A stretch of DNA of 64,000 nucleotides from Candidatus Yonathbacteria bacterium RIFCSPHIGHO2_02_FULL_44_14 (GTDB lineage: Bacteria > Patescibacteriota > Minisyncoccia > Phycocordibacterales > UBA1550): NCBI GenBank assembly GCA_001823535.1, contig MHUT01000012.1, forward strand, positions 355 to 64,354, written 5' to 3'. The position numbers and the translations under genes were made by a program. The notes beneath the pieces were generated by a model. That model saw only the letters and a program-made list of their open reading frames with translations, was not told the DNA's origin and ran no database searches. Positions 19,662 through 33,362 of this stretch are shown in pieces (position 1 is the first letter of the stretch; every line of letters starts with the position of its first letter).

Positions 19662-19684
19662 ATGCGTTTTCTATTGTACCAAAG

Positions 19685-19750
19685 TTTATGGCCGAGCCTG
19701 CGTCCAAGACGTGAATTTGTTAATTCAGAATCTGCTGATTCGGCTACATC
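19685..19750 (-). repeat. copy B of the ~60-nt conserved palindromic upstream element, 24 nt upstream of tRNA-Phe
   Basis: TTATGGCCGAGCCTGCGTCCAAGACGTGAATTTGTTAATTCAGAATCTGCTGATTCGGCTAC is 63/66 identical to copy C. Confidence 0.6.
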
Positions 19751-19813
19751 GGCGAATTTTATACTTTTGAAAATTTCAAATAATTGTTAATTATTTGACA
19801 GTACTGTCGCCTA

Positions 19814-20101
19814 CTACTTCCCTATCAAATTCTTCACCGACTGTACATCTGTAGGAATAGAGCCGGCAGTTTTTTCAAAATTTTGAATGATGCCCATCGA
19901 AGTCTGAAAAGTCTTCATATACTTTTGAATCGTTGGCTGAAAATAGTAGTAAACTCCAAAAATGGACCCGAGGATTATCGCCCAATACACGAAAGTAAAA
20001 AACGAACTCCAGCGCTGTGCGCGACGCATAGAGCGGAGAATTTTGTTATTCTCGTGGGTTATTTCTAACAGCTCGTCGAGCTTGCGATCATCAAGGTCCA
20101 T
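19814..20101 (-). CDS. hypothetical membrane protein (95 aa, 1-2 TM)
   Basis: Clean ORF with a hydrophobic core (FFTFVYWAIILGSIFGVYYYF). Confidence 0.45.
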   Translation of the reverse strand: MDLDDRKLDELLEITHENNKILRSMRRAQRWSSFFTFVYWAIILGSIFGVYYYFQPTIQKYMKTFQTSMGIIQNFEKTAGSIPTDVQSVKNLIGK

Positions 20102-20195
20102 AAATGAACTATATCAGATTTCACCAAAAATTCAAACGCTTTCAGTAAAAAAGCCCGGTTGTTGCCGGGCTTTTGAAAAAATTGACATACTTTGA

Positions 20196-20549
20196 TTATA
20201 CGTGTGCCAGTCGCTCAAACTCGTTCCTATGTGGAACTGTTTTTATTGATACTGGCTTGATTTCCTTGAGACACTCCGCTGGCGCCAAGAGCGACTCTTC
20301 GAGTAATCCTCGGCAGCGAAACCTACAGATTGCCAGCCCATTATCAAGAACCTTCACAACATTAATCTCGATCTTGATCAATCCGTCAAGACAACCCGTG
20401 TAGCAACGCAAAAGCTTGCTACGGGTTCCAGTATCAAGCACATTTACTGAATGGTCCAGAAACTGCTTAAACCGAGCAACGTCGAGAAAGTTTCTTCCTA
20501 ATGCGATTACCTTGGCTCTCCTTTTTGTACAAGTGACTTTTTTTGCCAT
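20196..20549 (-). CDS. hypothetical Cys-rich protein (118 aa)
   Basis: Internal ATG at 20549 (MAKKVTCTKRRAK...) with CYTGC and CRFRC pairs; no family recognised. Confidence 0.45.
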   Translation of the reverse strand: MAKKVTCTKRRAKVIALGRNFLDVARFKQFLDHSVNVLDTGTRSKLLRCYTGCLDGLIKIEINVVKVLDNGLAICRFRCRGLLEESLLAPAECLKEIKPVSIKTVPHRNEFERLAHV

Positions 20550-20694
20550 GTTACACTTCCTTTCTTTTAGGATAAGACTTGGTTGTAAAAACAAAAAAAT
20601 GGGAATTGCTCCCGCGTGAAATTGTACCACTAGAACCAAAACAATGTCAACTGTTTGTACAAGGCGAATTCAGGTTTTTCTTTGGTGGGCCGTT

Positions 20695-21003
20695 CTAATG
20701 AGGGAAAATGAATTCTCCAAGCACAAACATTAAAAGGGCGAGACCATATAACACTGCCAAGTATTTGCAAACTGACCACTCTTTGTGCTTGACGATAGTA
20801 TAAATTCCGATAACGAAAGATAGCAGACCGGACAGATTAAGTATGAGATTAAGCGCGACATTGAATATTGAGAGTAGAAGATTGCCCTCAATGACAGCAG
20901 AATCTCCCCCTATGGCGAAGGCAAAAATGAGCGAAAACGCCATTGATATAACTAAGACGATACCAAATCCCACCGACCATTTACCTGAACGAGATTGCGG
21001 CAT
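20695..21003 (-). CDS. small 3-TM membrane protein (paralog 1; holin-like size and topology)
   Basis: MPQSRSGKWSVGFGIVLV...; shares the N-terminal MPxxKxGKWSVG motif and topology with the adjacent gene. Confidence 0.5.
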   Translation of the reverse strand: MPQSRSGKWSVGFGIVLVISMAFSLIFAFAIGGDSAVIEGNLLLSIFNVALNLILNLSGLLSFVIGIYTIVKHKEWSVCKYLAVLYGLALLMFVLGEFIFPH

Positions 21004-21030
21004 AAAATTTATTTTTATAATAAAAATTAA

Positions 21031-21321
21031 TTAATCATTGATAAATAAACTATGAAGGAGGATAAAAAGTATAGTACATACGCCTATGATGATGGATAGA
21101 AAAACCAAAACAGAACGCTCTTTATATTTCCTAATCGCCAATATTCCGGTGATTAAAGCAATGATGCTTGCCGGGAATGCAACAGCTACTGTTATATCCC
21201 ACCAGTGGTCGTCAAAATTAAGTATTTTTAGTATGAAAACAAGCACGCAAGAAATGGCAATTGCGATTAAGAAAAAGGCGTTCAAACCTACTGACCATTT
21301 ACCTAATTTAGTTTTTGGCAT
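21031..21321 (-). CDS. small 3-TM membrane protein (paralog 2)
   Basis: MPKTKLGKWSVGLNAFFLIAIA...; tandem paralog of 20695-21003. Confidence 0.5.
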   Translation of the reverse strand: MPKTKLGKWSVGLNAFFLIAIAISCVLVFILKILNFDDHWWDITVAVAFPASIIALITGILAIRKYKERSVLVFLSIIIGVCTILFILLHSLFIND

Positions 21322-21791
21322 AGATTATCTTTTCCTCTTGTTAGTTAATATTTTTCCGACTTTATGATTAAAAAATTTTCTTCCCCCAAAATTAAAACAT
21401 GGTTCGAGCCGATGTTTTTCTACGGGTTCTTTTGCGGTTTCGAGCGGTGCGGCTCTGCCACCATTCCGAATTTTCGCGGAGGGAATTTTCCGAAAAAATG
21501 CGTTCAGACTAATTCAAGGATACTGCGCAAGAAGGAAAAGTCAAAGAGTTTTGGTTCGTGGTGCCCCATGTCGGTCTCGGAATTGCGGGTGTCAGACCCC
21601 ACAAGGGTTCCTTGGGTACTTTTAGCGTATCAAACTGAACCCGCTCAGTCTGGTCTCAATAGACACGATAGACACTATAAAAAGAGCTTGGGTTGTGTCT
21701 CGTGAGACATACACCATTTGCTCGCGTCGGAACCTTAAATTTGTAAATGATACAAATGAGACACTAAGACGGCATTTTAAGGCTGTCTCAT

Positions 21792-22286
21792 TTACAGTAG
21801 TTTACCATTTTTATACCACTCCATCGTAATGATCTGACCTGCTTTTTTAGATACTCCAAAGACTATGTATAATCCAAGCCTATAACCATAGCCATCCAGC
21901 CTTTGAGTCAATCCTTCTATTTTCCATATGTCGTCTCGAGCTGGGCTATTATTGGTTTCAATTTCTATGGCAACCAGATTATTTTGATCAGTATTTCTTT
22001 CGTGAACAGCTATATCCAACTCTATTAATTTACCTTTTAAGTATTTAGAGGCGCCTAGATGTTTATTATAAAAAGGATCACTGTGGATGTCACCAGTGTT
22101 AAATTTTTTGGATATTTGTGCTGCAAAACAAGACATAAAATTTCTTTCGACTCTGCCATTCTTCAAGATACCAATCTCGGCTTCGATTGTAGAATTTGCA
22201 GCACTTTCAATTTTGGACATCAGGTCTGCTTCTTCTTTAGTAATTTGTTGTTGACTGTTTGGCATATTAAAATGTGTGCACGACAA
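21792..22286 (-). CDS. hypothetical protein (164 aa) downstream of mrr
   Basis: Clean ORF with a hairpin terminator at 21745-21785; no family recognised. Confidence 0.5.
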   Translation of the reverse strand: MSCTHFNMPNSQQQITKEEADLMSKIESAANSTIEAEIGILKNGRVERNFMSCFAAQISKKFNTGDIHSDPFYNKHLGASKYLKGKLIELDIAVHERNTDQNNLVAIEIETNNSPARDDIWKIEGLTQRLDGYGYRLGLYIVFGVSKKAGQIITMEWYKNGKLL

Positions 22287-22356
22287 ACTATGATAGCCAC
22301 GACTTGTCCAACACTCTTATCAAATAAGAACACTTGCAATATTGCGTGTGACTTTA

Positions 22357-23259
22357 TTATTCTTCAAAAAAATAATCAGAGTCTACTTTTTTAATCTGGT
22401 ATGTTGCTAGAATTGATACACCAATATCATGCTCAATCATCAATCTAACCAGTTCTGAACCATCAACAAGAATAACCCTGCAATCTAATTTCTTTACGTA
22501 ATCAAGAGCCTCTTGTGTGAAATTAGATGTTGTAATAAAGATACCTTTCTTTGCAAACTTTCCAGTTAATGCACCTACAAATCCTTGTACATCCGGGCGA
22601 CCAACAGTTCCTTTCCATCGCTTTGCTTGAAGATAAATCAAATCAAGACCCAGTTTGTCTTCTTTGATAATTCCATCTATCCCTTCATCCCCAGTTTTTC
22701 CTAGTGCCTGCCCAGCATCCTTTCTAGAACCACCATATCCCATACCTATAAGTAGATCAACGACCACCTGCTCAAAAAAGGCAGGTGAACCATTCATCAG
22801 ATTACTTAATAAATCAGCCTCTAGGTCCTTTAGAATTCTCTGATAGCTTGATTCTAAAGATTCTTCCGGAGTATTTTCTGAAACATCTTCTTTTTCTTGC
22901 GTCACTTGATCCTCGCTACCATATTGAAACTCGCGAAACGAGGAAAACTGATCCAAAAAATGCGTATCAATAACTTCTGGTTTTTGACTTAGAGCTTTCA
23001 ATCCTTGCTTTGTGATTTTTACGTAACTCTTTTTAGGAGCATCTACTAAACCAGCCTTTTTGAGATATGTTTTTGCCCATCCAGTTCTGTTACTAAAAAT
23101 ACTCATTCTTCCGCTAGGGGTGCGCTGGACAAGTTCGTCTTCGGTTAATTTAAATTCAGCAGAAAGTGCCCCTTCAATTTCTTTAAGAGTATGCTCTTTT
23201 TCATCGGACAATTGTCTTAGGAAAGGCAAAATAATATATCTGAATTTTGGTATAGCCAT
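22357..23259 (-). CDS. mrr: Mrr-family type IV (modification-dependent) restriction endonuclease
   Basis: N-terminal winged-helix (Mrr_N-like) and a C-terminal Mrr_cat core: GGSRKDAGQALGKTGDEGIDGIIKEDKLGLDLIYLQAKRW nearly matches E. coli Mrr. Confidence 0.85.
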   Translation of the reverse strand: MAIPKFRYIILPFLRQLSDEKEHTLKEIEGALSAEFKLTEDELVQRTPSGRMSIFSNRTGWAKTYLKKAGLVDAPKKSYVKITKQGLKALSQKPEVIDTHFLDQFSSFREFQYGSEDQVTQEKEDVSENTPEESLESSYQRILKDLEADLLSNLMNGSPAFFEQVVVDLLIGMGYGGSRKDAGQALGKTGDEGIDGIIKEDKLGLDLIYLQAKRWKGTVGRPDVQGFVGALTGKFAKKGIFITTSNFTQEALDYVKKLDCRVILVDGSELVRLMIEHDIGVSILATYQIKKVDSDYFFEE

Positions 23260-23360: not shown

Positions 23361-25247
23361 CTATTTTAGCTGGTAGTAGAAGTAGGTTCCGTTAGGAAAT
23401 TTAATGTTAGGAACCCATAACGGTCGATCTTCCCACCCCTTATTGGCTTCACCCTTTAGCCTATAGAGTGTGAGCACAAGCCTGTCGTTGAAGCGTGCGC
23501 CCATCTCACGGTCAGTAGGAGAGAGTAAGGTACCTGTTCCTTTGCTGATACTTCTCTCTGTTCTGACAATAAGATGACAGTCGTACTTCGCACCTTTCTT
23601 GAGAGTCTCAACACAGTCTGCGAATGAGTGCTGATTCCAAAGATCACTTTTTTCTACACTAACAAGACGCAGTATCTTTTCAGCTTCGTCTAGTGAAATA
23701 TCCTTTTCCATGTCCTTACTACCAAGCTCCGCGTCCAAAGCAGGGAGGCTGGTGTGCGTTGGATTAAGTGGAAAATAATTAACCCCACCCGCGATGACCA
23801 TCAGGTCTTCTTTGAGAACAACGCTCATGCGTGTTGGGCGGGTTCCTTTTGGAGTAAGGAGGCTGACAGCCTGAGGTCCTTTTTCTAGAAGAGTACTGAA
23901 CAGAGCATTGTTAGCATCATTCAGTTCTCGAAAAAGTTTTATGAGCGGTCGCGGACTGAAAAGGCGACAGAGCCCAGGATCTCGGTCATATCCGAATATT
24001 CTGGCGTGTTGCCACGAAGTATCTGCTTGGGGAGTTTTCGCGCTTCTGCAATAATAGACGATTTGCAGACCGGGAAATGTAACACCTCGCCCGAGTGTAT
24101 TACCACCGATCACAATATTGAGACCTTTATCATACACGGATCCTTCCGGTGTTTTTGAGTTCAGAACAGTAATATTTACGCTCGGCATATCGGCACGAAG
24201 GAATCGCATAATTTCATCAAAGGGTTTAATATCTGTTTTTGTTTTTGAAAGCTCCTCCCATGCATCACGTAGATCAAATTCGAGGGTGGAAGAATTTGCA
24301 ATAAGATCGGTTTTCACTCCTTCCAGGAATTTTTCCACCTTTGTCCTTACAGTTGAATGTTCACTTATTTTTACTCCGGGATGAATCAGCATGCTACACG
24401 CCGACCTCTCTTTGGTCAAAAAGAGATCGGATGCCACTACCAAAAAATGAAGGACTGCTTTACGAAGGCCGATTGGCACATGCTCTGCTTTTAGTAAATC
24501 GTCGCGCTCATTATCCTCTGTTTCAATAAGATTTTTTGAGTCCTCGCCATAAAAGAAATCACCGCCGAGATACCCCTTATTTGGTGGCAGATAAAAAGAA
24601 TACTGGGGCTTCCATCCCGATAACTCTATCTGAAGAACAAGAGACTGTGGGGTTGCTGTAACATGGAGGTAAATTGACGATGGAGACTGCTTGTTTATTT
24701 TCTCAAGCAACATATTAATCGTACTCTGCTCATTTTGATTTACTTTTGTGTTGAGACTTGAGGCGTCTGCTTCATCATCGAGAAGAAAAAGTGGTTCATC
24801 CTTATAGATAGGATTTGTAGCAATATTGTTTGCCCACGTCTTCAAAACGCCGGAGTTTTTCTTAAGTACGAGTATCGTCGGCATAGAAAGACCGCGCGTA
24901 AGGAAGGCTTCCTCGTCTGATTCCCCAAGTACATTGAAGCCCGCCATGAATCCTCCGAGAAAATTCTTTGCACGCTCCAGTGTTTGTTTGTGTAGAATAA
25001 CATTATCAGTGGTTACCAATATAAAAAACTTGAATCCTCTGTCAGCAGCTGTAGCCGCGATCGCAAGCATCTGTCCTGTCTTCCCACTCTGCACGTGTCC
25101 ATAAAGCAGGCCAGAAACGTGACTATTGTGGTCAAAAGTATCTATATGCTTCTTTGCAAATTCCTCTGCACTTTTAGTTAGCGCCTCAACAAGCGCTGGG
25201 TTAGTAGCGCCTACTCGTCTTAAATAATTTTCTAAAAATTTGCTCAT
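23361..25247 (-). CDS. P-loop NTPase, Z1-domain-like restriction-system component (628 aa)
   Basis: Walker A LLYGHVQSGKTGQM near the N-terminus; the size and its position between a C5-MTase/REase and mrr resemble Z1-domain proteins of R-M loci. Family assignment by eye only. Confidence 0.65.
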   Translation of the reverse strand: MSKFLENYLRRVGATNPALVEALTKSAEEFAKKHIDTFDHNSHVSGLLYGHVQSGKTGQMLAIAATAADRGFKFFILVTTDNVILHKQTLERAKNFLGGFMAGFNVLGESDEEAFLTRGLSMPTILVLKKNSGVLKTWANNIATNPIYKDEPLFLLDDEADASSLNTKVNQNEQSTINMLLEKINKQSPSSIYLHVTATPQSLVLQIELSGWKPQYSFYLPPNKGYLGGDFFYGEDSKNLIETEDNERDDLLKAEHVPIGLRKAVLHFLVVASDLFLTKERSACSMLIHPGVKISEHSTVRTKVEKFLEGVKTDLIANSSTLEFDLRDAWEELSKTKTDIKPFDEIMRFLRADMPSVNITVLNSKTPEGSVYDKGLNIVIGGNTLGRGVTFPGLQIVYYCRSAKTPQADTSWQHARIFGYDRDPGLCRLFSPRPLIKLFRELNDANNALFSTLLEKGPQAVSLLTPKGTRPTRMSVVLKEDLMVIAGGVNYFPLNPTHTSLPALDAELGSKDMEKDISLDEAEKILRLVSVEKSDLWNQHSFADCVETLKKGAKYDCHLIVRTERSISKGTGTLLSPTDREMGARFNDRLVLTLYRLKGEANKGWEDRPLWVPNIKFPNGTYFYYQLK

Positions 25248-25250
25248 ATT

Positions 25251-26303
25251 TTATCTTGAAAAATCTAGCAGCCATACTTCTGGATCGGTGGTCTCCTTAA
25301 GTGAAATTGTATTCCGTCCATATTTTTGAAACACTTCTGGTGTCACAGGCTGTCCGACCTTGAGGCACCCAGCTCTTTCGAGTCTTCCTTTAATCCACCG
25401 GCCTAGAGTTTTCAAGTCGCCTTCTGATCTGAAATTCTTTCCATAGTCTCCCTGAATTTTGCAGTTGAACCGCCACCCGTCGTCAGTGTACACACGGATT
25501 ACTGAGTCTCGTTTTGGATAACCGTCTGCCATAGTTATCTCTATTGGAACAATGAGCTCTACTTCATACCAGTGACGAGGGCGTATTGCTCCTGTACTTT
25601 TCGCAAGCCTTCCTTTCCCAAAATAAGTATTAAGATTACTCTTGGCTTCCGCCTTGAGAGGAAGATCGAATACGCGGTCTGTAAGCGTGCTTTCTATTTT
25701 ACGGTATTCTTCTCCTTCTAGTTTGTCTACATCAATTCTGTCTTTCAGCAAGTCAGGCATTTCAATAAACGTCCCTGGTTTTGGCCAATCGAGAATGTCC
25801 GTTGATGCTTTTACGACGAGTTCGTTATGTAGACCATCAAGCTTCATGAGCACACTCTCCTCGGTAAAAAGAGCATCCACCTCCCATTGTCGATTATCGA
25901 GGATATTACCAAGATTCGATGACCCCATCATTGCGGAAACCGGTGCAGGCTTTCCGTTTTTCCAGAACACATAGGTTTTCCCGTGGAATTTAAAAGCCGT
26001 GCATACGCGCACACTGCCTATACCTTTCTCCTTAAGAAATTCTGCAAGGTCTATAGCAGCTTCATACTGCGCGCGTGTGAATCCCTCTCTCCCGTGCATG
26101 CCGATTACAAGACTGCACATTTTGTCTTTGTTCTCTTCATTATAAAATAGGAGAATCGATTTTAGCTCCAACAGAGAGTCTTCTGTAACATAGCCAGTAG
26201 CTATTTTTATGCTGTCAGAATTAACGATGCCTGATTCAAAAGCTTCGCTGAATGAAGAGTTATCGTACTCACAAGGTTTGATTTTTGAATAAAGTAATTC
26301 CAT
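25251..26303 (-). CDS. PLD-superfamily restriction endonuclease (NgoFVII/BfiI-like) with a C-terminal B3-like DNA-binding domain
   Basis: FKFHGKTYVF...GSSNLG (HxK ... GSxN PLD nuclease motif). C-terminal RVYTDDGWRFNCKIQGDYGKNFRSEGDLKTLGRWIKG resembles the B3/EcoRII-N-like domain of R.BfiI; size is 350 aa. Confidence 0.7.
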   Translation of the reverse strand: MELLYSKIKPCEYDNSSFSEAFESGIVNSDSIKIATGYVTEDSLLELKSILLFYNEENKDKMCSLVIGMHGREGFTRAQYEAAIDLAEFLKEKGIGSVRVCTAFKFHGKTYVFWKNGKPAPVSAMMGSSNLGNILDNRQWEVDALFTEESVLMKLDGLHNELVVKASTDILDWPKPGTFIEMPDLLKDRIDVDKLEGEEYRKIESTLTDRVFDLPLKAEAKSNLNTYFGKGRLAKSTGAIRPRHWYEVELIVPIEITMADGYPKRDSVIRVYTDDGWRFNCKIQGDYGKNFRSEGDLKTLGRWIKGRLERAGCLKVGQPVTPEVFQKYGRNTISLKETTDPEVWLLDFSR

Positions 26304-26314
26304 ACGAACTTATT

Positions 26315-27379
26315 TTACATATCAGATACTTCATCTAAAAACTTCCTAATTGCTTTTGCAATCGGCTTTATTCCAGCAGGTGGCACAGAATTACCAATCT
26401 GCCTTCTAACCTCAGTTATCGATCCAACGAACTCAAAATCATCTGGATAGCCAAATAGACGGGCACGTTCTCGATTAGTGAGAGGCCGGTTTTCTTTCCA
26501 ATGGTACCCCCATGTACCCCCACCACCACCAGCAATAATAGTAGTCGAGGGCTTATCTGGATGCAAGCGACGGTATACATGGGAGATCATCCCCTTCACA
26601 TAGTGCGGTGAGGTTTTAGGGATATCGGTGAAGTTTCCACCTGGCGGAATCAGTCTCAATTTTGCGACCGTGCTTGGATTAATGTTTTGGTGCTCGTTAT
26701 TGAAAAATACTTTTTCAGCATCCTTCAGAGCTTCTTTTGCCGTAACATACTTATCTGGTGTATGAGTGGGAAATGGTAGCTTAAATTCTTTATTAAGATC
26801 GTTACGGACACCAATGATTAACACACGCCGGCGAAGCTGGGGAGCGCCGTAGTCTGCAAAGTTTATAGGATAAACATTCACTTTATAGCCTGCCTTTCCA
26901 AAATCGTCCACTATCTGAGTGACTGCGTTGCCTTTGTTTGCGCTTAAAAGTCCTCTAACATTTTCGGCAACAAACATTTTCGGCTGCTTCGCCAAAACAA
27001 CACGAACGAATTGCCTATACAGGTTCCCACGATCAGTTTTAAGACCCATACGCTTCCAGATCATGCTGAAATCCTGACATGGAAACCCGCCGAGAACAAT
27101 GTCACATTCTGGAATATCTTCATTTTTAACAGCGGTTATACTCCCTTCCATTATATGGTCGCCAAAATTTTTCTTGAAAGTTTCGCAGGCCCAGTGGTTC
27201 ACATCATTTGCCCACAAGATATCAAATCCTGCATCTTTGAAACCGAGGTCCATTCCACCGGACCCAGAAAAAAGAGAGGCCACGCGGTGTACTTTTTTCT
27301 CTATAACGGACTTGCCCGAGCGGGCAACCTGTGGCTTCGCTGAACGGTTATTTTGTTTTTGTGGAGTTGTTGTTCTCAT
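26315..27379 (-). CDS. DNA (cytosine-5)-methyltransferase
   Basis: Motif I LFSGSGGMDLGF, motif IV GGFPCQDFS, motif VI ENV and a C-terminal target-recognition/RxR region. Confidence 0.9.
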   Translation of the reverse strand: MRTTTPQKQNNRSAKPQVARSGKSVIEKKVHRVASLFSGSGGMDLGFKDAGFDILWANDVNHWACETFKKNFGDHIMEGSITAVKNEDIPECDIVLGGFPCQDFSMIWKRMGLKTDRGNLYRQFVRVVLAKQPKMFVAENVRGLLSANKGNAVTQIVDDFGKAGYKVNVYPINFADYGAPQLRRRVLIIGVRNDLNKEFKLPFPTHTPDKYVTAKEALKDAEKVFFNNEHQNINPSTVAKLRLIPPGGNFTDIPKTSPHYVKGMISHVYRRLHPDKPSTTIIAGGGGGTWGYHWKENRPLTNRERARLFGYPDDFEFVGSITEVRRQIGNSVPPAGIKPIAKAIRKFLDEVSDM

Positions 27380-27496: not shown

Positions 27497-28045
27497 TTAA
27501 AGTTTCCATTCAATGAACGCGAAGTTCTCTGTCGTGAGGCCATAATCAAGAGACTTCTCGAGCCACTGTATTTGGGTCTCCCGAATATTGTCTTTCTTTT
27601 GACGCTTGAGTTCAATGAACAACATCATATCTCCTTTCCACACGAACACATCCCAACAACCACCAGACCGACCAGTCTTGGCACGGATGGAGTCAATTAA
27701 TTCTTTTTGTTTTTGTGGAATCTCTATGGGGTCAACAACATCAGGAAGACCGACTCTGTAATTTCTTCTGTACGAATCAACCCATACGCCATTCCATCCA
27801 TGTGATTGAAGCAAACGCAAAACGGCGAGCTCTGCAAATACAGGCTCGCCGTTCCAATCGACAACTGGTTTGTTGTTATATGTGTTAGGTATCGATGCTC
27901 CTTTCCATGGAGTGAGTGTAAGAAAATATTTCTGCATGGAAATTTGCTCACCCGAAGGAAGCGAGAATATTTCGCCATCAACTTTGTATGGTTGTAAAAA
28001 CTCAAGATTACCTTCTTGAGAAGTATGAGTATGGTCGTCGTCCAT
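27497..28045 (-). CDS. VRR-NUC domain nuclease (PD-(D/E)xK)
   Basis: GGCWDVFVWKGDMMLFIELKRQKKDNIRETQIQWLEK (D...ExK plus the QxxW tail typical of VRR-NUC). Start set at the MDDDHTH ATG (28045) because the track's upstream extension lies in an inverted-repeat region. Confidence 0.65.
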   Translation of the reverse strand: MDDDHTHTSQEGNLEFLQPYKVDGEIFSLPSGEQISMQKYFLTLTPWKGASIPNTYNNKPVVDWNGEPVFAELAVLRLLQSHGWNGVWVDSYRRNYRVGLPDVVDPIEIPQKQKELIDSIRAKTGRSGGCWDVFVWKGDMMLFIELKRQKKDNIRETQIQWLEKSLDYGLTTENFAFIEWKL

Positions 28046-28786
28046 ATTTGTTCGTCGCGATTTTGTTATACCTAATTTGGGGTACAAAAAGCCCGCTACC
28101 AGGAAGGCACCTTGCGGTAACCTCTACCAGAGTTTCCCCTGGTAACGCGACGAACGCCCTGATAACGGGTTCTTTATGTTCGTCGCGATTTGCAGCCATA
28201 CCCTAAAGATTTTTGAAACCCTTTAGGGGTTAGGCCGACTTCTATGAAGTTGTAAGTGCATTGTAGCAGAAAATCTGCTACTCCTCCATTTAAGCTTAGT
28301 TCTGAAGATTTGTGTAGCTCAGTTGTCTACACCTGTGGATAACTCAATTTACACTGTCCCGCGAAAAACCGTGATGGAATTTGAGTATTTTTCAGCTCAT
28401 CTCTATCTATTTACACTACTGACATCCTTGACAGAAAAAATCAAAAAAGTGGCTAAAAATCTATTGCAATTTTTATAAATCAATGAAACAATATGTATGT
28501 TAGCTCATTTCATATTTATAAATACCTGTCGCTTACGCGACAAACGCTCCTATCTTCAGAGGTGAATGCCAAGGCAGACTGAAGCGAGGGTCGTTGATAG
28601 GATTTACATATAACAACTGATCGGTACTGGGGTCACAAGCCAGAAAGGTGTCCGATGAAGAACTGTAAATCGAGTAAATAACAAACGGAAGTTTGTCGTT
28701 TATTTGATTTACAGTTTTTTGTATATCAATAAACGTCAGACATCCATTTGAGATGTGCTGACGTTTATTCGTTATTAACAAAAAAT
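28046..28786. promoter_or_regulatory. 740-bp noncoding region: candidate origin / operator region of the island
   Basis: Three copies of GTTCGTCGCG in alternating orientation (28052, 28146, 28178). AT-rich stretch with two TTTATAAAT motifs (28468-28528). Multiple nested inverted repeats (28660-28716; 28728-28769, ending 18 nt before the ParB-MTase ATG). Confidence 0.45.
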
Positions 28787-30109
28787 ATGGATATTAAAAT
28801 CACGTATGTGCCTATTGGTTCTTTGAATCCAAGCACATACAATCCACGCAAGTGGAACGAGGCGCAAACTAATGCACTCAAAGAATCGATTACAAAGTTT
28901 GGAATAGTTGACCCCGTCATTTGCAACTCTGCATCTGAACGAATGAACACGGTGATTGGCGGACACTTTCGATTGAAGGTTGCTAAAGACCTCGGACATA
29001 CTGAGATGCCAGTGGTCTATGTAAATATTCCTGATATCGAGAAAGAAAAAGAACTAAATGTGCGATTGAATAAGAACCTCGGTGAGTTTGACTTCGAGCT
29101 TCTGAAAGATTTCGGTGAAGCGTTCCTCGGCGAAATGGGTTTTAGCACTGAAGAGCTTGATAATATATTTGCGATTGACCCAACCCCAGAAGTATTCGAC
29201 TTGGAAAAGGAGCTGGAGAAGCTCAACATTCACGAAATTAAAGTAGAGAAGGGTGACATATACGAAATTGATGGATCACGGCTCATGTGTGGTGACAGCA
29301 CTATTGAATCCGACATGCTGAAACTGATGGAAGGAGCACAGGTGGATATGGTATGCACTGATCCCCCCTATATTTTGGACTACCTCAAAGGGAAAACAAA
29401 ACAAAAGGACGGAGTGACTGAAGGGTTCGGACTGAAGAAGAATCGTAAGTATCTTGAGACAGATGTGCTGCCATACAACTTCACAGAACTCTGGATGGCA
29501 AGCGTGGCAAAGGTGCAGAAGCCAGACTTCTCTATCATGATATTTGAGCATCCAAAGAATCTCCGCACTATCTGGAATGAATTGGAGAAACACTGGAAAT
29601 ACCGCAACACCATTACATGGCATGTTCCCAATCGTGTGCAGGGATTTGCGGCTAAGTACAAATTCTTTAACAAGAGTGATATCGCTCTGGTTGGCACTGA
29701 TGGAGAGATAGCTCTTAATCTTGAGACAGAGAGTGACGAGCTTTTTCAGAATGAATACGAGAATGCAATCTTTGCAACTTCTGGGAAACCTCATTTCGAG
29801 TCATATGAGAAAGGCAAGAAGATTTGTCCAACTGATTTCATTGACCATATTGCGGCCGACGAAAAATCTTCGGGGCAAGGAATTATCTTTGGCACAAAGC
29901 CGTTAGAATTATTGATCCCCTACATCAAGGTACTGACCAAACGTGGTGACTTGGTGCTTGAGCCATTCGGTGGATCAGGAAGTACACTCATTGCTTCGCT
30001 GAAGCTTGGGCGTAATTGTCGCATCATGGAAAAGTCCCCCGTGTATACGGAAGTGATAAAGGGTCGTTGGGAGAAGCACACGGGAAAGAAGGCGAAGAAG
30101 ATTAACTAA
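28787..30109 (+). CDS. ParB/Srx-like nuclease domain fused to a beta-class N6-adenine/N4-cytosine DNA methyltransferase
   Basis: N-terminal ParBc-like region (YVPIGSLNPSTYNPRKW...GGHFR). Motif IV DPPY (MVCTDPPYIL) precedes motif I (LEPFGGSGSTLIAS), which is the beta-class order. ATG at 28787 is chosen. Confidence 0.85.
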   Translation: MDIKITYVPIGSLNPSTYNPRKWNEAQTNALKESITKFGIVDPVICNSASERMNTVIGGHFRLKVAKDLGHTEMPVVYVNIPDIEKEKELNVRLNKNLGEFDFELLKDFGEAFLGEMGFSTEELDNIFAIDPTPEVFDLEKELEKLNIHEIKVEKGDIYEIDGSRLMCGDSTIESDMLKLMEGAQVDMVCTDPPYILDYLKGKTKQKDGVTEGFGLKKNRKYLETDVLPYNFTELWMASVAKVQKPDFSIMIFEHPKNLRTIWNELEKHWKYRNTITWHVPNRVQGFAAKYKFFNKSDIALVGTDGEIALNLETESDELFQNEYENAIFATSGKPHFESYEKGKKICPTDFIDHIAADEKSSGQGIIFGTKPLELLIPYIKVLTKRGDLVLEPFGGSGSTLIASLKLGRNCRIMEKSPVYTEVIKGRWEKHTGKKAKKIN

Positions 30110-30117
30110 CCACTTCT

Positions 30118-30804
30118 ATGCCTTCTCCTAAAACAAAGAACAAAACGGAGAAGCGATTGGAAACATTAGCGGTAAAGACAAGGGCGCAGAAGCAGGCGTT
30201 CCTCGAACAGCTCCCAAAGTATCCGATAGTACAGGTCGCCTGTGAGAAATCAGGTGTCGGTCGTTCGACGTACTATGCGTGGCGAAAGGATGATAAAGAA
30301 TTCGCGAAGGAAGCCGACAAAGCCATTAGTAGTGGTGAGCTCTTCATCAACGATATGGCAGAGTCGCGCCTCATTCAGAATATTCAGAACGGTAACAACA
30401 CCGCCATTATCTTTTGGCTGAAGAATCATCACGGTGGATACAATGACCGTATCGTGCATGAGCATGAACACTCACTTGAGCTTGTGGATGAGGATCGCAA
30501 GGCTATCGTAAAAGCCCTGATGAACATCGGTCTTGGAAATGTTCTCGTGAATAACGGCATAGACCCAGAGCAGTGGCACGAAAAACAGCGACTTGAAAAA
30601 GAGGAGCACATGAGGCGGGTAAATGGGGTCATTGGGTCTGCACCAGAAAAGGCGGATACTATTTTTAAAATTCCTTCTCGTCCCAGTCCACCAGCAGTTG
30701 AAATGCCAAACACTCCACCAAAAAAGCGACCAGTGAAAAAAGGGATAAACCTTAAAGAGTACTTCAGTGATGTAGCGGTTAAGAAGTGCCTTGGGAGTAA
30801 ATAG
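30118..30804 (+). CDS. HTH protein resembling a phage terminase small subunit
   Basis: N-terminal QVACEKSGVGRSTYYAWRKDDKEF HTH typical of TerS/transposase-like helix-turn-helix, followed by a basic proline-rich tail. Confidence 0.55.
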   Translation: MPSPKTKNKTEKRLETLAVKTRAQKQAFLEQLPKYPIVQVACEKSGVGRSTYYAWRKDDKEFAKEADKAISSGELFINDMAESRLIQNIQNGNNTAIIFWLKNHHGGYNDRIVHEHEHSLELVDEDRKAIVKALMNIGLGNVLVNNGIDPEQWHEKQRLEKEEHMRRVNGVIGSAPEKADTIFKIPSRPSPPAVEMPNTPPKKRPVKKGINLKEYFSDVAVKKCLGSK

Positions 30805-30823
30805 TTGTCTACTTCTTGTCTAC

Positions 30824-30851
30824 AACCCCGCCTAGGATACCTAGCGGGGTT
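30824..30851 (+). terminator. hairpin after the HTH gene
   Basis: AACCCCGCCTAGG-ata-CCTAGCGGGGTT. Confidence 0.5.
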
Positions 30852-30899
30852 GTGTCATTCCTTGTGTATATGAGCAAAATTGAAATGCCAGTTGGGGCT

Positions 30900-32189
30900 A
30901 TGGCGAGGGAGATTCAAGCCCCCGTAAGGGTTAAATATTGCCTGTACGCGAGAAAAAGTACAGAAAGTGAAGAACAGCAGGTCTTATCGATTGATAGCCA
31001 AATTAAGGAGATGCTCCAAATGGCAGAAAGGGACCATTTGGAGATTGTGGAAATCAAGAAAGAATCGCACTCGGCAAAGGAGGCTGGGCAACGGCCTGTC
31101 TTTAACGAGATTGTCGAGGAGATTAAAAGCGGTAAATTCAACGGCATCCTCACTTGGGCACCAGATCGCATCTCAAGAAACGCGGGAGACCTAGGGAGAA
31201 TTGTTGACTTGATGGATTCAGGCAGACTTCACGAGATACGCACCTATGGGCAGAAATTTAGCAACAACCCGAACGAGAAATTCTTACTGATGATCCTCGG
31301 ATCACAGGCGAAACTCGAGAACGACAACAAGGTGGTCAATGTAAAGCGTGGGTTACGTGCGCGATGTGAGATGGGTCTGTGGCCGTGTACCGCCCCTACT
31401 GGATACCTAAACAGTACTAATACCGAGAGAAGCTGTCATGTAGAAGTTGATATCGAGAGGGCTCCTATAATAAAGAAAATGTTTGAGAAAATAGCATACG
31501 AAGGATATAGTGGTCGCAAAGTACACTCATGGTTAAAAGACGAGATGAAATTCAAAACAAGAAATGGTAAACCTCTCAACGTAGGTAACATTTCTTTAAT
31601 ACTGAGAAATACTTTCTACTATGGAACCTTCGAATACCCGAAGAAGGGCGGGCAATGGTATCAAGGAAAACATACGCCAATAATAACCAAGGAGCTTTTC
31701 GACAAAGTGCAGGAGAGCCTCGTGGGCTACTCCACAAACAACGCAAGCAAAGAATTCGCCTTCACAAAACTGCTAACCTGCGGACTGTGCGGATCAGGGA
31801 TTACTGCCGATGAGAAATTCAAGAAACAACAAAATGGAACAGTACATCGGTACGTCTACTATGGATGTTGCAGATTTAGAGACAAAAACTGCAAATCAGG
31901 GTACATGCGAGAAGAGGATTTAATAGATCAACTTGCAGAACTCATGGATGAAATTCACCTTAATGAGATAGGGATGAAGGAAAAAATAAAAGAAGAAATC
32001 GAACGACACAAGAAATTCGAATCAGGATTACTTGGTATAAAGAGTACAACGGTAAAAATTGCCGACATCGACATACGAAACTACGCAAAATATATTTTGA
32101 GAGATGGAAAGACCTCAGAAAAACGAGAATTACTAACCTGCCTGAGGAGTAAGGTAACGATGGCGGAGAAACGGATTAAAATTAGTTAA
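30900..32189 (+). CDS. large serine recombinase (integrase/resolvase family)
   Basis: Catalytic YCLYARKSTESEEQ with the Ser nucleophile, a recombinase domain and a C-terminal zinc ribbon CGLCGS...YYGCCRFRDKNC plus coiled coil. ATG at 30900 is chosen; the track's TTG start at 30816 overlaps the upstream hairpin. Confidence 0.85.
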   Translation: MAREIQAPVRVKYCLYARKSTESEEQQVLSIDSQIKEMLQMAERDHLEIVEIKKESHSAKEAGQRPVFNEIVEEIKSGKFNGILTWAPDRISRNAGDLGRIVDLMDSGRLHEIRTYGQKFSNNPNEKFLLMILGSQAKLENDNKVVNVKRGLRARCEMGLWPCTAPTGYLNSTNTERSCHVEVDIERAPIIKKMFEKIAYEGYSGRKVHSWLKDEMKFKTRNGKPLNVGNISLILRNTFYYGTFEYPKKGGQWYQGKHTPIITKELFDKVQESLVGYSTNNASKEFAFTKLLTCGLCGSGITADEKFKKQQNGTVHRYVYYGCCRFRDKNCKSGYMREEDLIDQLAELMDEIHLNEIGMKEKIKEEIERHKKFESGLLGIKSTTVKIADIDIRNYAKYILRDGKTSEKRELLTCLRSKVTMAEKRIKIS

Positions 32190-33283
32190 CTATTAGACCT
32201 ACTTCTGTATGACTCCAAAGATCCAGCGACCTCCTGCTTTTTCAGCGACTTAATTTTTAGAATAATCTCGTTTGAATATCTAGTTAAATCGCCCTCATTA
32301 GATCTCCAACAATACCTAGGGTCTTCTTTGAGTTTAAACTTAAAACATATAGCTTGAAAAGTGTAGGGTGTAAATTTCTCACCATTTAAGGATCCAATTT
32401 TTTGAACTATGTTTTTTTGACGCCATGGGTGTGTAATATTTGGATCTTGTATCTTTGTTATAATTAATGGGCCTCCTGTCGCACCACGTACACCATCAAC
32501 CCCTGCAACGAAATCAGCTTTTTCGATTTTTTTAACTGATTGTACGGAAACATTAAATATTGTCATTAGCCTAGCTGTATCATCTCCAGCCTTTTCAACC
32601 TCCTCCAAGCTTGCAACTAATGTATTCATGAACTGCCTGACTGCTGATCCTTTTGCGGTTGTATTTTTCGATCCTTGAGAAATATACTTTACAGGGTCGA
32701 TTGGTGGTTCAATCCCCAAAGGGATGAGTTGCCACGAAATATCGTGGGCTAAATTCTTTCCAAATATTTCTAGAAGTAAATCTTTAAAGTTAATTATATT
32801 TGTTTGTGCAAGTGAGTAAATTAAAATGCCAAAATTTTTTTCATTGTAAAAATGTACTGCGTTATCTCTGTATGTACTCAGAAGGCTGAGATTGGCACGA
32901 AGTGGTAAAGTTGGTATTTTTTTAGGAAAAAATTTTTCTGCTTTGGTAAAGGCATCTGTCATAGACATTGTTCTGTATGGTTCATTTCTTTTTTTTCGAT
33001 AGTATATCGAACCCCTATTTTTTGAAATAATAGCTTTAAGCAACAACTCCCATGAGTTCAGAAGTAGAATAACAAAAGTCTCCTCTCTATAGAGAAAGCT
33101 TGGTTTATTATATATTTCTATTGACGCAAGCAATGCACTTTTTGCATTCCGAAATAAGTGTCGCGAGGAGCCTTGGTAGTTCATTATTACAATAATACAC
33201 TTATTTACACACGAAAAAAGCACCCAATTATTCCTCTCGGTAAAACCAGAGAGGGCATTGAAAATGCATAGTTTAAATACCAT
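32186..33283 (-). CDS. hypothetical protein, possibly abortive-infection / defence-associated (365 aa)
   Basis: Helical N-terminal domain with RHLFRNAKSALLASIEIYNKP; family not firmly recognised. Convergent with the recombinase, overlapping by 4 bp. Confidence 0.55.
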   Translation of the reverse strand: MVFKLCIFNALSGFTERNNWVLFSCVNKCIIVIMNYQGSSRHLFRNAKSALLASIEIYNKPSFLYREETFVILLLNSWELLLKAIISKNRGSIYYRKKRNEPYRTMSMTDAFTKAEKFFPKKIPTLPLRANLSLLSTYRDNAVHFYNEKNFGILIYSLAQTNIINFKDLLLEIFGKNLAHDISWQLIPLGIEPPIDPVKYISQGSKNTTAKGSAVRQFMNTLVASLEEVEKAGDDTARLMTIFNVSVQSVKKIEKADFVAGVDGVRGATGGPLIITKIQDPNITHPWRQKNIVQKIGSLNGEKFTPYTFQAICFKFKLKEDPRYCWRSNEGDLTRYSNEIILKIKSLKKQEVAGSLESYRSRSNS

Positions 33284-33362
33284 AAGTTCGATGTATTAGC
33301 GGGGTCGTGTTTTTAGCTGTCAAAAAACCTTTATTTTGTAGACCTCGGTCGGTCTCACATGC

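What the first reader, a model, noticed from the sequence alone, without database searches (positions are those of the whole stretch)
19662..33362. 13.7-kb tRNA-bounded accessory island with mixed defence and mobile-element cargo
Between tRNA-Phe and tRNA-Arg the gene content switches from housekeeping to a block that is absent from the flanking synteny logic. It comprises holin-like tandem small membrane proteins, Mrr, a Z1-like NTPase, a PLD-family REase, a C5-MTase, a VRR-NUC nuclease, a long noncoding repeat region, a ParB-nuclease::MTase fusion, a TerS-like HTH protein, a large serine recombinase and an Abi-like gene.

The two boundary tRNAs each carry a near-identical copy of the upstream element (B and C). 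A duplicated tRNA-Phe 3' end lies just outside. This fits a (possibly degraded) integrative element, satellite or prophage remnant that brought or duplicated a tRNA promoter module.
Basis: partly seen in the sequence, partly recalled or inferred. Interest (0 to 1): 0.7.

Follow-up and report, generated by a model that had tools for sequence, protein, structure and literature searches.

The report
Recombinase-driven defence island at tRNA-Arg
An 11.8-kb mobile island carrying restriction and other defence genes sits at the very 3' end of a tRNA-Arg gene in a groundwater Candidatus Yonathbacteria genome; it is an ordinary kind of element, but it shows that its serine-recombinase family targets tRNA ends and it gives the function-unknown LOOT RNA a defined genetic context.

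Summary
The listed features are real: both tRNAs, every named gene family, the 62-nt repeat and the extra tRNA-Phe 3' ends. The boundaries and the promoter-module idea are wrong.

Related Candidatus Yonathbacteria genomes have Hsp20, tRNA-Phe, a conserved 95-aa gene, a short variable gap, tRNA-Arg(CCT), then glutaredoxin. The mobile unit is therefore window 21558-33362 (11.8 kb), inserted at the last bases of tRNA-Arg. tRNA-Phe and the small membrane genes lie outside it.

- **Termini:** both recur in related elements with unrelated outer flanks, abutting tRNA-Arg(TCT), tRNA-Arg(TCG) or tRNA-Lys.
- **Driver:** a large serine recombinase from a very abundant lineage (over 120 protein clusters at 75-94% identity).
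- **Backbone:** ParB-methyltransferase, a small-terminase-like HTH protein, a VRR-NUC-like nuclease and LOOT RNA (Rfam RF03000).
- **Cargo:** Mrr; a Z1 NTPase + PLD/B3 endonuclease + C5-methylase restriction system; and PDC-S19. Relatives carry different defence cargo.

LOOT heads the leftward cargo operon. In four independent lineages, one strand of its central helix is copied exactly just upstream of the next gene's start codon, which suggests cis-regulation.

The 62-nt element is a dispersed repeat that lies outside the island.

The island's left end abuts a fragment of a second, very abundant repeat family associated with tRNA ends and serine recombinases.

The parts
33363..33437 (-). tRNA-Arg(CCT). 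Its 3' end (GGGCACCA) is the attachment point; the junction is at 33362|33363.
   Evidence: Homology with empty-site relatives resumes at 33362-33365.
33340..33362 (.). Right terminus of the island (P' arm), AGACCTCGGTCGGTCTCACATGC.
   Evidence: The same CTCGGTCGGTCTCAC motif abuts tRNA 3' ends in L229, L231, L235 and L237, with a variant form in L234.
32186..33283 (-). DUF3644 + EC042_2821 protein, a candidate defence gene (PDC-S19).
   Evidence: Pfam. PADLOC PDC-S19, 1e-127.
30885..32189 (+). Large serine recombinase of 434 aa (the mechanical ORF starts at 30816).
   Evidence: Resolvase + Recombinase + Zn_ribbon_recom domains. phrog_95 integrase, 3e-62. More than 120 protein clusters at 75-94% identity.
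30118..30804 (+). HTH protein resembling a small terminase subunit. It could be a packaging protein, a regulator or a directionality factor.
   Evidence: phrog_309, 4e-12. 42% identical to the TerS-like protein of L230, which is followed there by TerL.
28787..30109 (+). ParB_N-domain + N6/N4 DNA methyltransferase fusion with no partner endonuclease (orphan methylase).
   Evidence: Pfam. phrog_498, 3e-77. Start as called in public annotations.
28237..28786 (.). Divergent noncoding control region between LOOT and the methylase operon. It holds an inverted repeat at 28658-28719 and an extended -10-like TGCTACAAT at 28260-28268 on the - strand, upstream of LOOT.
   Evidence: The region is conserved in L026.
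28104..28236 (-). LOOT RNA (Rfam RF03000), at the head of the leftward cargo operon.
   Evidence: 70 bits against a gathering score of 46.4, full length. Covarying copies occur in L026, L028, L230, L232, L233, L234 and L237.
28049..28063 (-). Exact 15-nt copy of the 5' strand of LOOT's central helix (AAAUCGCGACGAACA). It ends 3 nt before the ATG at 28045.
   Evidence: (repeat family D19).
27497..28045 (-). VRR-NUC-like PD-(D/E)xK nuclease. It is a backbone gene, 88-90% identical in L026 and L028.
23361..27379 (-). Three-gene restriction-modification system: C5 methyltransferase (26315-27379), PLD + B3-like endonuclease (25251-26303) and Z1 NTPase (23361-25247).
   Evidence: Pfam. PADLOC MTase_II, REase_II and Helicase_II.
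22357..23259 (-). Mrr, a Type IV methyl-directed restriction enzyme.
   Evidence: Pfam. PADLOC mREase_IV, 4e-83.
21792..22286 (-). 164-aa protein of unknown function; the last cargo gene.
   Evidence: Only a weak PD-Lambda-3_A hit. No Pfam or PHROGs hit.
21558..21708 (.). Left terminus of the island (P arm). It begins TGGTGCCCCATGTCGGTCTCGGAATT, which on the - strand reads as a tRNA-like ...GGGGCACCA end. It includes a near-invariant block with AGACAC repeats.
   Evidence: Shared at 86-88% identity with L026 and L028 and also present in L232 and L236, each with unrelated outside flanks.
21343..21557 (+). Outside the island: a truncated copy of an abundant tRNA-end repeat associated with serine recombinases. 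It is cut exactly where the island begins.
19814..21321 (-). Outside the island: the conserved 95-aa single-TM gene (19814-20101), followed by a variable host region holding a 117-aa Cys-rich protein and two paralogous three-TM proteins.

Best explanation
Window 21558-33362 is an integrative island mobilised by its own large serine recombinase (LSR). It is inserted at the extreme 3' end of the host tRNA-Arg(CCT) gene in a Candidatus Yonathbacteria (Paceibacterota) genome.

**Integration (inferred).** The recombinase joins an element site to the tRNA end.
- The element site (attP), reconstructed on the + strand, is ...CCTCGGTCGGTCTCACATGC | TGGTGCCC | CATGTCGGTCTCGGAATT....
- One attP arm ends in a tRNA-like GGGGCACCA.
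- The exchange falls within the 8 bases (GGGCACCA) that both junctions share, so the tRNA stays intact.

**Backbone.** The element carries the recombinase and its two conserved termini. In this sub-lineage it also carries a ParB-methyltransferase, a small-terminase-like HTH protein, a VRR-NUC-like nuclease and LOOT RNA.

**Cargo.** The slot between the left terminus and LOOT holds exchangeable defence genes. Here they are Mrr and a three-gene restriction system (Z1 NTPase, PLD/B3 endonuclease, C5 methylase). PDC-S19 lies at the other end of the element, beside the recombinase. These genes would protect the host and also stabilise the element.

**LOOT (inferred).** LOOT is transcribed from its own promoter at the start of the leftward cargo operon and probably acts in cis. 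The 3' strand of its central helix can pair either with its partner inside LOOT or with an exact copy of that partner lying over the next gene's translation start. This would gate expression of that gene.

**Shown:** the insertion relative to empty-site genomes, the conserved termini, tRNA-end targeting across the family, gene identities, and the LOOT match with its covarying copy.

**Inferred:** catalysis by this recombinase at these sites, present-day mobility, the route of cell-to-cell transfer, and LOOT's regulatory role.
For: **Empty sites**
- Relatives show Hsp20 | tRNA-Phe | 95-aa gene | 0.2-1.7 kb | tRNA-Arg(CCT) | Grx.
- Nucleotide homology to these relatives stops at about 20136-20175 and resumes at 33362.

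**Left terminus**
- The window, L026 and L028 become alignable exactly at TGGTGCCCC, with unrelated sequence outside.
- In L026 the outside flank is a terminator hairpin plus an inverted copy of the tRNA-Arg 3' end. That is what follows tRNA-Arg in the empty-site genomes L020 and L033.

**Right terminus**
- CTCGGTCGGTCTCAC plus 4-5 nt abuts tRNA-Arg(TCT) in L237 and tRNA-Lys(TTT) in L235; L234 has a variant (CTCGGTCTGGTCTCAC) next to tRNA-Arg(TCG).
- It also abuts GGGCAC(CA) at the contig ends of L229 and L231.

**Recombinase**
- All three LSR domains are present.
- More than 120 clusters share 75-94% identity.

**Variable cargo on a shared backbone**
- L026 carries a SF1 helicase, a C5 methylase + MutH-like endonuclease, and RadC.
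- L028 carries Dam and N4/N6 methylases, DUF6996/6997 and SNase.
- L229-L237 carry Type I, III and ISP restriction systems, OLD, KAP NTPase and Mrr.

**Composition**
- GC is 41.6% against about 45% in the flanks.

**LOOT**
- Rfam score is 70 bits.
- A model built here finds LOOT in 8 of the 11 loci of this recombinase family. In the other sequence searched it finds one copy (L055) in about 1.1 Mb of Hsp20-region loci and none in 0.58 Mb of the second repeat family.
- The helix-strand copy lies 2-4 nt before the ATG, with four different sequences, in window/L026, L028, L232 and L233.
Against: - No excised circle, attP junction or same-species empty attB was found.
  - All 19 same-species contigs read for the flanking Grx gene match the island's right end. 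One (L243, 98% identical) diverges inside the recombinase gene.
  - An attP pattern search of viral contigs found nothing.
- The two att arms share a direct GAGACCGAC repeat rather than the clear inverted half-sites usual for LSR sites.
- No recombination directionality factor was identified.
- L232 has the left block beside murB with no tRNA in view, and L236 has it directly upstream of the recombinase. Architecture is therefore not uniform across the family.
- The copy of the LOOT helix strand is absent from L230, L055, L237 and L234.
- In this window the window's native left flank is itself a fragment of another mobile repeat. The history of the site is therefore more complex than a single insertion.
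Confidence: 0.78

Rival explanations
1. The block is a decayed prophage or a phage satellite. On this view the ParB-methyltransferase, the small-terminase-like protein and the recombinase are what remains of a packaging and integration module, and transfer depends on a helper phage.
For: - HTH228 hits small-terminase families (phrog_309, 4e-12; phrog_4044, 1e-8).
- The methylase hits phage family phrog_498.
- L230 has the order ParB-methylase, TerS, TerL (phrog_38, 2.5e-78), recombinase, plus an S24 repressor-like gene.
- L229 and L230 come from the viral contig collection searched.
- The 11.8-kb size and the defence cargo resemble satellites (own knowledge of PICI and P4 hotspots).
Against: - No capsid, portal, tail, replication or repressor gene occurs in the window or in any of the 11 loci of this recombinase family examined.
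- There is no TerL, and no remnant of one, in the window.
- Several family members (L231, L234, L235, L237) have neither the methylase nor the TerS-like gene. These are therefore not backbone genes of the family as a whole.
Confidence: 0.15
2. The block is a static defence hotspot built by several unrelated insertions next to tRNA-Arg. On this view the recombinase is a relic and the block never moved as one unit.
For: - This site is variable in every relative (0.2-1.7 kb gaps, different islands).
- A fragment of another mobile repeat sits at the left junction.
- Population variants diverge at 21398|21399 and 21557|21558.
- No same-species empty site was found.
Against: - Both termini are conserved together with the recombinase across genomes that carry different cargo and use different tRNA targets.
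- The recombinase lineage stays at 75-94% identity across more than 120 clusters, which fits recent spread.
- The recombinase ORF is intact.
Confidence: 0.1
3. One reading: a 13.7-kb element bounded by tRNA-Phe and tRNA-Arg that brought or duplicated a tRNA promoter module (the 62-nt element).
For: The 62-nt copies are 97% identical, lie upstream of both tRNAs, and are 13,805 bp apart.
Against: - The 95-aa gene between copy B and the island is core in relatives.
- Both 62-nt copies lie outside the conserved termini.
- The distance from the repeat to the tRNA differs (24 nt against 53 nt).
- A third copy lies between two ORFs at 5398-6561 and 6725-7960, which read by eye as ftsA and ftsZ.
- In relatives the element sits elsewhere, not at these tRNAs.
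Confidence: 0.03

Closest known systems
tRNA-associated genomic or defence islands with tyrosine integrases (P4-type integrase islands, pathogenicity islands)
   Same: Inserted at the 3' end of a tRNA gene that stays intact. Absent from relatives. Atypical composition. Carries accessory (defence) cargo together with its own integrase.
   Different: The enzyme is a large serine recombinase, not a tyrosine integrase. Only 8 bases are shared between the junctions, rather than a long duplicated tRNA segment. One element arm mimics a tRNA acceptor/CCA end.
Elements mobilised by large serine recombinases (SCCmec/Ccr, Tn5397/Tn4451, phiC31, Bxb1 and SPbeta-type prophages)
   Same: Same three-domain recombinase architecture. 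A short region of identity at the junctions. One recombinase gene near one end of the element.
   Different: The targets are tRNA 3' ends of several isoacceptors (Arg CCT/TCT/TCG, Lys TTT). The cargo is restriction and defence genes. There are no phage structural or conjugation genes. The host is a CPR bacterium. LOOT RNA is part of the element.
Phage satellites with defence hotspots (PICI, P4-like)
   Same: About 12 kb in size. Integrase, a small-terminase-like gene, and a variable defence slot.
   Different: No replication or primase module, no master repressor and no capsid-redirecting genes. No helper phage is known.
CglI/NgoAVII-type ATP-dependent Type II restriction systems
   Same: A PLD nuclease + B3-like DNA-binding R protein, a Z1/helicase-like N protein and a C5 methyltransferase, encoded as adjacent genes.
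   Different: Known only from HMM matches here. Recognition sequence and activity are untested.
LOOT RNA motif (Rfam RF03000; typed there as an sRNA gene)
   Same: Full-length match above the gathering score, with compensatory changes among copies.
   Different: Here it has a defined context, inside serine-recombinase islands at the head of cargo operons. It also has a 3' tail complementary to the apical hairpin and, in four lineages, a copy of one helix strand over the next start codon. These point to cis-regulation rather than a free-standing sRNA.

Membership tests
Large serine recombinase | N-terminal resolvase catalytic domain + recombinase domain + zinc-ribbon domain | tested here: met
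   PF00239, PF07508 and PF13408 are all above their cut-offs. The YARKST serine motif is visible in the translation.
Large serine recombinase | Short att sites (about 40-50 bp) with a small crossover core and no long direct repeats | tested here: inconclusive
   Only 8 nt (TGGTGCCC) are shared between the junctions and both termini are conserved. Inverted half-site symmetry is not evident, and no attP or attB was observed directly.
Large serine recombinase | Catalyses attP x attB integration | not testable with these tools
   Needs a recombination assay.
tRNA-integrated genomic island | Present or absent at a conserved tRNA locus among relatives | tested here: met
   Empty sites in L020, L022-L025, L027 and L031-L033. 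Related islands at the same site in L026 and L028.
tRNA-integrated genomic island | Composition differs from the host | tested here: met
   GC is 41.6% against 44.7-45.4%. Tetranucleotide outliers at 19-26 kb and 31-35 kb.
tRNA-integrated genomic island | Flanking direct repeats derived from the tRNA 3' end | tested here: inconclusive
   Only the 8-nt TGGTGCCC is shared. The left end carries a tRNA-like GGGGCACCA rather than a longer tRNA-Arg fragment.
Phage satellite (PICI or P4-like) | Integrase plus replication module plus repressor plus genes that redirect helper packaging | tested here: not met
   Only an integrase and a TerS-like HTH protein are present. No primase or replication gene, repressor or capsid gene was found by Pfam or PHROGs.
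Prophage | Structural and lysis genes | tested here: not met
   None in the window island. The relative L230 has TerS + TerL only.
Integrative conjugative or mobilisable element | Relaxase/oriT or a type IV secretion system | tested here: not met
   No such Pfam domain in any island ORF. oriT was not searched for.
LOOT RNA (RF03000) | Covariance-model score above the gathering threshold, over the full length | tested here: met
   70 bits against 46.4, model positions 1-121.
LOOT RNA (RF03000) | Helices supported by compensatory changes | tested here: met
   The central helix reads CGCGACGAAC / CCCGCUAGAG / GACGUAUCAAGC in the window, L028 and L230.
CglI/NgoAVII-type restriction-modification | R protein (PLD + B3-like), N protein (Z1 NTPase) and C5 methylase in one operon | tested here: met
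   PF09565 + PF20731, PF10593 and PF00145 in adjacent genes on one strand. PADLOC REase_II, Helicase_II and MTase_II.
CglI/NgoAVII-type restriction-modification | ATP-dependent cleavage that needs both R and N proteins | not testable with these tools
   Biochemical property.
VRR-NUC nuclease | PD-(D/E)xK core matching the family profile | tested here: inconclusive
   Pfam E = 0.008, below the cut-off. A D...ELK motif is present. The top Foldseek hits are the FAN1 VRR-NUC domain and Hjc, at E about 4e-3 over 57-115 residues.

The most novel reading that the evidence does not exclude
LOOT RNA is a cis-acting leader that gates expression of newly arrived defence cargo in a family of serine-recombinase islands in CPR bacteria that target tRNA ends.

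- The 3' strand of its central helix toggles between its partner inside LOOT and an exact copy of that partner laid over the next gene's translation start.
- A covarying 3' tail followed by a U-run offers a second switch.
- The recombinases use a tRNA-mimicking attP arm, which would let them insert after many different tRNAs.
- A sister lineage (the repeat that abuts the island at 21343-21557) has been reduced to IS-like, recombinase-only units of about 1.6 kb. These have spread to the 3' ends of at least 18 tRNA species.
Probability: 0.35. Interest if true: 0.72.

Novelty: new variant of a known kind. Interest (0 to 1): 0.58.

Why it matters
Mobile elements and defence systems of CPR (Patescibacteria) bacteria are poorly described.

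- **Defence cargo on a moving backbone.** This locus, with its relatives, shows interchangeable restriction and defence cargo riding on one abundant serine-recombinase backbone. The backbone targets tRNA 3' ends, a niche normally associated with tyrosine integrases.
- **LOOT RNA.** The locus places the orphan LOOT RNA in a concrete genetic setting. It also suggests a directly testable mechanism, strand mimicry at the start codon.
- **Possible tools.** Recombinases that recognise conserved tRNA ends through a tRNA-like attP arm could be of interest as integration tools.
- **If the inferences fail.** What remains is an ordinary tRNA-linked defence island.

Tried and rejected
- **Structured RNA or tRNA/tmRNA-like gene at 21558-21708.** ARAGORN and Rfam find nothing there, and the fold z-score is only -1.4. 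I treat the block as a DNA-level att arm and protein-binding region.
- **The 62-nt repeats as att sites or a tRNA promoter module.** Rejected.
- **Same-species empty site.**
  - Exact-protein look-ups of Hsp20, DivIC, the 96-aa protein and Grx returned mostly island-bearing or truncated contigs.
  - The 86-aa Grx ORF is not on record.
- **attP or conserved left block in viral contigs.** No hits.
- **TerL remnant in the C-terminal half of HTH228.** None.
- **Sequence homologues of the VRR-NUC-like protein among solved structures.** None.
- **Literature on LOOT.** The discovery paper's main text does not mention it and no supplement is held. One methods paper notes only its unusual covariation.
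- **Literature on serine recombinases in CPR bacteria.** One search (large serine recombinase, candidate phyla radiation, integrative) listed nothing on tRNA-targeting serine recombinases in CPR bacteria among the papers shown.
- **Contig L104, which diverges from the window exactly at 21557|21558.** I first read it as an empty site. It continues into the intact repeat of the second family, so it is either an alternative allele or an assembly join through that repeat. This is unresolved.
- **Composition outlier at 49-55 kb.** It is a 902-aa repeat-rich surface protein, unrelated to the island.

Full report
**1. What is in the sequence**

ARAGORN and Rfam place tRNA-Phe(GAA) at 19586-19661(-), tRNA-Arg(CCT) at 33363-33437(-) and tRNA-Gly(CCC) at 33944-34015(-).

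- Mrr
- a Z1 NTPase
- a NgoFVII-type PLD + B3 endonuclease
- a C5 methyltransferase
- a ParB_N + N6/N4 methyltransferase fusion
- an HTH protein that matches small-terminase families
- a three-domain large serine recombinase (LSR)
- a DUF3644 + EC042_2821 protein, which PADLOC files as candidate defence family PDC-S19

The 196-aa 'VRR-NUC' protein is below the Pfam cut-off (E = 0.008). Three further lines of evidence support the assignment:
- It has a D...ELK motif.
- It belongs to a family of 213 clusters; the few members that carry a source name are Patescibacteria/Parcubacteria, and several carry a Pfam VRR_NUC hit.
- It gives an AlphaFold model (pLDDT 80) whose best Foldseek matches are the FAN1 VRR-NUC domain and Hjc resolvases.

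The 62-nt direct repeat is real (97% identity; 19686-19747 and 33491-33552). So are the extra tRNA-Phe 3' ends.

**2. Source organism and empty sites**

Exact-protein look-ups place the window in groundwater metagenome assemblies (JGI, ENA and Logan records).

A scan of one genome per species with the flanking Hsp20 returned Candidatus Yonathbacteria and other Paceibacterota genomes.

In these relatives the order is IleRS, PrsW, Hsp20 | tRNA-Phe | a 95-aa gene | short gap | tRNA-Arg(CCT) | glutaredoxin | tRNA-Gly | DivIC | LepA.
- The 95-aa gene is the homologue of window 19814-20101 (60-89% identity), so it is core.
- In L023 the gap between it and tRNA-Arg is only 210 bp.
- Nucleotide homology between the window and these genomes ends at about 20136-20175 and resumes at 33362-33365.

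The region 20.2-21.5 kb holds a 117-aa Cys-rich protein and two paralogous three-TM proteins. It is a variable host stretch, and weak homologues of the first gene sit at this position in island-free genomes.

**3. The true ends of the island**

*Left end.* Two species (L026, L028) carry different islands at the same site. They share with the window only three pieces: 21546-21708, the VRR-NUC/LOOT segment, and the start of the ParB-methylase.
- Alignment shows that all three become homologous exactly at TGGTGCCCC (window 21558), with unrelated sequence to the left.
- On the tRNA strand this end reads ...CCGAGACCGACATGGGGCACCA, a tRNA-like acceptor/CCA end.
- In L026, the sequence just outside this end is a terminator hairpin followed by an inverted copy of the tRNA-Arg 3' end. 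That is what follows tRNA-Arg in the island-free genomes L020 and L033. The island therefore sits immediately after the tRNA-Arg 3' end.

*Right end.* The motif ...CCTCGGTCGGTCTCAC(ATGC) abuts the tRNA in the window. The same motif, with 4-5 variable bases, abuts tRNA 3' ends in elements that encode 79-89% identical recombinases:
- tRNA-Arg(TCT) in L237
- tRNA-Lys(TTT) in L235
- tRNA-Arg(TCG) in L234, where the motif is a variant (CTCGGTCTGGTCTCAC)
- GGGCAC(CA) at the contig ends of L229 and L231

*Conclusion.* The mobile unit is 21558-33362 (11.8 kb). The junctions share only TGGTGCCC. Its GC content is 41.6% against about 45% in the flanks.

**4. The recombinase family and its cargo**

The LSR has more than 120 protein clusters at 75-94% identity, which fits an element that is still spreading.

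Eleven loci of this family were examined. None has capsid, tail, replication or conjugation genes. All carry restriction or defence genes:
- Type I, III and ISP restriction-modification systems
- an OLD nuclease
- a KAP NTPase
- Mrr
- C5 methylase + MutH-like and Dam-type systems

The window's cargo is:
- Mrr (Type IV);
- a three-gene system whose domain set matches, from my own knowledge of the literature, the CglI/NgoAVII type: R protein PLD + B3, N protein Z1 NTPase, C5 methylase;
- PDC-S19.

ParB-methylase and the TerS-like HTH protein are shared with L026 (methylase start only; the locus ends there), L230, L232 and L233, but not with every member. L230 additionally has a large terminase (phrog_38, 2.5e-78) and an S24 repressor-like gene. 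The window has no TerL remnant. This leaves a phage or satellite ancestry possible, but the membership features of satellites and prophages are not met.

**5. LOOT RNA**

The 'noncoding repeat region' contains a full-length LOOT RNA at 28104-28236(-), scoring 70 bits against a gathering score of 46.4. An extended -10-like TGCTACAAT lies upstream of it.

LOOT also occurs in L026, L028, L230, L232, L233 (weak), L234 and L237.
- In other words, it is in 8 of the 11 loci of this recombinase family.
- A model built here found one further copy (L055) in about 1.1 Mb of Hsp20-region loci and none in 0.58 Mb of contigs from the second repeat family.
- The copies show compensatory changes.

In every case LOOT lies directly upstream of, and on the same strand as, a variable gene: VRR-NUC, SNase, an OB-fold protein, a Type III methylase or an unknown.

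*Strand copy.* In window/L026, L028, L232 and L233, the 5' strand of LOOT's central helix is repeated exactly, ending 2-4 nt before the next ATG.
- The repeats are 15/10, 12, 13 and 9 nt long.
- The four lineages have four different sequences.
- The helix's 3' strand can therefore pair with either copy.

*3' tail.* The G-rich tail plus U-run that follows LOOT is complementary to the apical 5' strand of the same hairpin. This pairing covaries in L028, L233, L055 and L234.

Minimum-free-energy folding of LOOT plus its leader gives z-scores of about -5. For the window, the predicted fold uses the tail pairing in place of the Rfam central helix.

I infer a cis-acting leader that controls the first cargo gene. 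This is untested, and four loci (L230, L055, L237, L234) lack the start-proximal copy.

**6. The 62-nt element and tRNA-Phe**

The third copy of the 62-nt element lies between two ORFs, at 5398-6561 and 6725-7960, that I read by eye as ftsA and ftsZ. That copy shows a compensatory change in its second hairpin.

Relatives have the element at other intergenic sites and not upstream of these tRNAs. It is a dispersed small repeat, and both local copies lie outside the island.

The extra tRNA-Phe ends belong to a 218-bp polymorphism. Contig L100 lacks 19389-19574. The proximal part of that segment is conserved next to tRNA-Phe in relatives.

**7. The left flank is itself a mobile repeat**

It belongs to a repeat unit that directly follows the CCA end of tRNAs. 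Of 131 copies:
- 74 follow tRNAs of 18 different anticodons;
- 25 follow a tRNA-like ~135-nt segment;
- 29 follow other sequence and 3 lie at contig ends.

In seven contigs, two inverted copies 1,559 nt apart enclose a single LSR gene. Where examined (L161), the ORF is intact and runs through the repeat into the flank. Another recombinase on contig L138, flanked by related sequence, is 39% identical to the window's.

The window holds a truncated copy (21343-21557), cut exactly where the island begins. Contig L104 continues into the intact repeat instead. The island therefore arrived at, or replaced part of, a tRNA-Arg end already occupied by this second family. I could not reconstruct the exact event.

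**8. Verdict**

- It is a real integrative defence island.
- It spans 11.8 kb and is attached to tRNA-Arg only.
- It is driven by an LSR family that targets tRNA 3' ends.
- tRNA-Phe, the small membrane genes and the 62-nt element are bystanders.

As a kind of element it is known. The recombinase class and target combination, the CPR host, the LOOT association and the adjacent repeat family make it a new variant worth follow-up.

Noticed in passing
window 21343-21557; loci L109-L228: A very abundant repeat family follows the CCA end of tRNAs of at least 18 anticodons.
- Unit layout: CACCA, then 5 nt, then GAAAAGTCAAAGAGTTTTGGTTCG, then a hairpin with a variable loop, then about 50 nt.
- In seven contigs, two inverted copies 1,559 nt apart enclose only a large serine recombinase. 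Where examined (L161), its ORF has no stop codon inside the element.
- A ~135-nt tRNA-like companion segment contains pieces that resemble the recombinase's own N-terminal coding sequence.
- Together these look like IS-like minimal serine-recombinase elements whose recombination site overlaps the recombinase gene.
   Followed up: partly
window 6589-6642 (+), 19686-19747 (-), 33491-33552 (-): A 62-nt dispersed repeat made of three consecutive short hairpins: GAATC-N4-GATTC, GAAYT-N4-ARTTC and CGTC-TTG-GACG.
- It has a compensatory C/G to T/A change in the second hairpin.
- It lies upstream of an ORF read by eye as ftsZ, of tRNA-Phe and of tRNA-Arg, always in the orientation of the downstream gene.
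- It is also found at other intergenic sites in L023 and L027.
- It could be a small mobile repeat or a tandem palindromic protein-binding site.
   Followed up: partly
window 19357-19606; L020, L026, L033 downstream of tRNA-Arg: tRNA genes here are followed by a terminator hairpin and then an inverted copy of the tRNA's own 3' end. For tRNA-Phe this forms a perfect 26-bp palindrome (19542-19597). A 218-bp unit flanked by 32-nt direct repeats of the tRNA-Phe end is polymorphic: contig L100 lacks 19389-19574.
   Followed up: partly
window 21398|21399 (contigs L002/L102) and 21557|21558 (contig L104): Same-species metagenome contigs diverge from the window at these two points. L102 runs into 240 nt of unrelated sequence containing a long inverted repeat. 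L104 runs into the intact tRNA-end repeat. These are either alternative alleles or assembly joins through repeats.
   Followed up: partly
window 28083-28100 and the LOOT loci L028, L055, L233, L234: Beyond the 3' edge of the Rfam LOOT model there is a G-rich segment plus a U-run. It is complementary to the apical 5' strand of LOOT's central hairpin and covaries with it. This suggests an unmodelled pseudoknot or an alternative terminator-like helix.
   Followed up: partly
window 21659-21679, 21745-21763, 30803-30825; L236 9830-9900: Short AGACAC/GTGTCT-containing repeats (ATAGACACGATAGACAC, AAATGAGAC x2, TTGTCTACTTCTTGTCTAC) recur in the left att arm and just upstream of the recombinase gene in several family members. 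They may be binding sites for a regulator or for the recombinase.
   Followed up: no
L230 7194-8645 and 4094-4738: A 60%-identical relative of the recombinase sits next to a large terminase subunit and an S24 (LexA/CI-like) peptidase gene. The 18.9-kb contig has no capsid genes.
   Followed up: partly
window 33559-33604: A perfect 23-bp palindrome with no loop lies just downstream of the glutaredoxin gene's stop, next to copy C of the 62-nt repeat. It is probably a terminator.
   Followed up: no
window 49000-55000: A compositional outlier (GC up to 52.6%) is caused by a 902-aa beta-propeller (Vgb_lyase-like) + CARDB surface protein gene at 50957-53665.
   Followed up: yes
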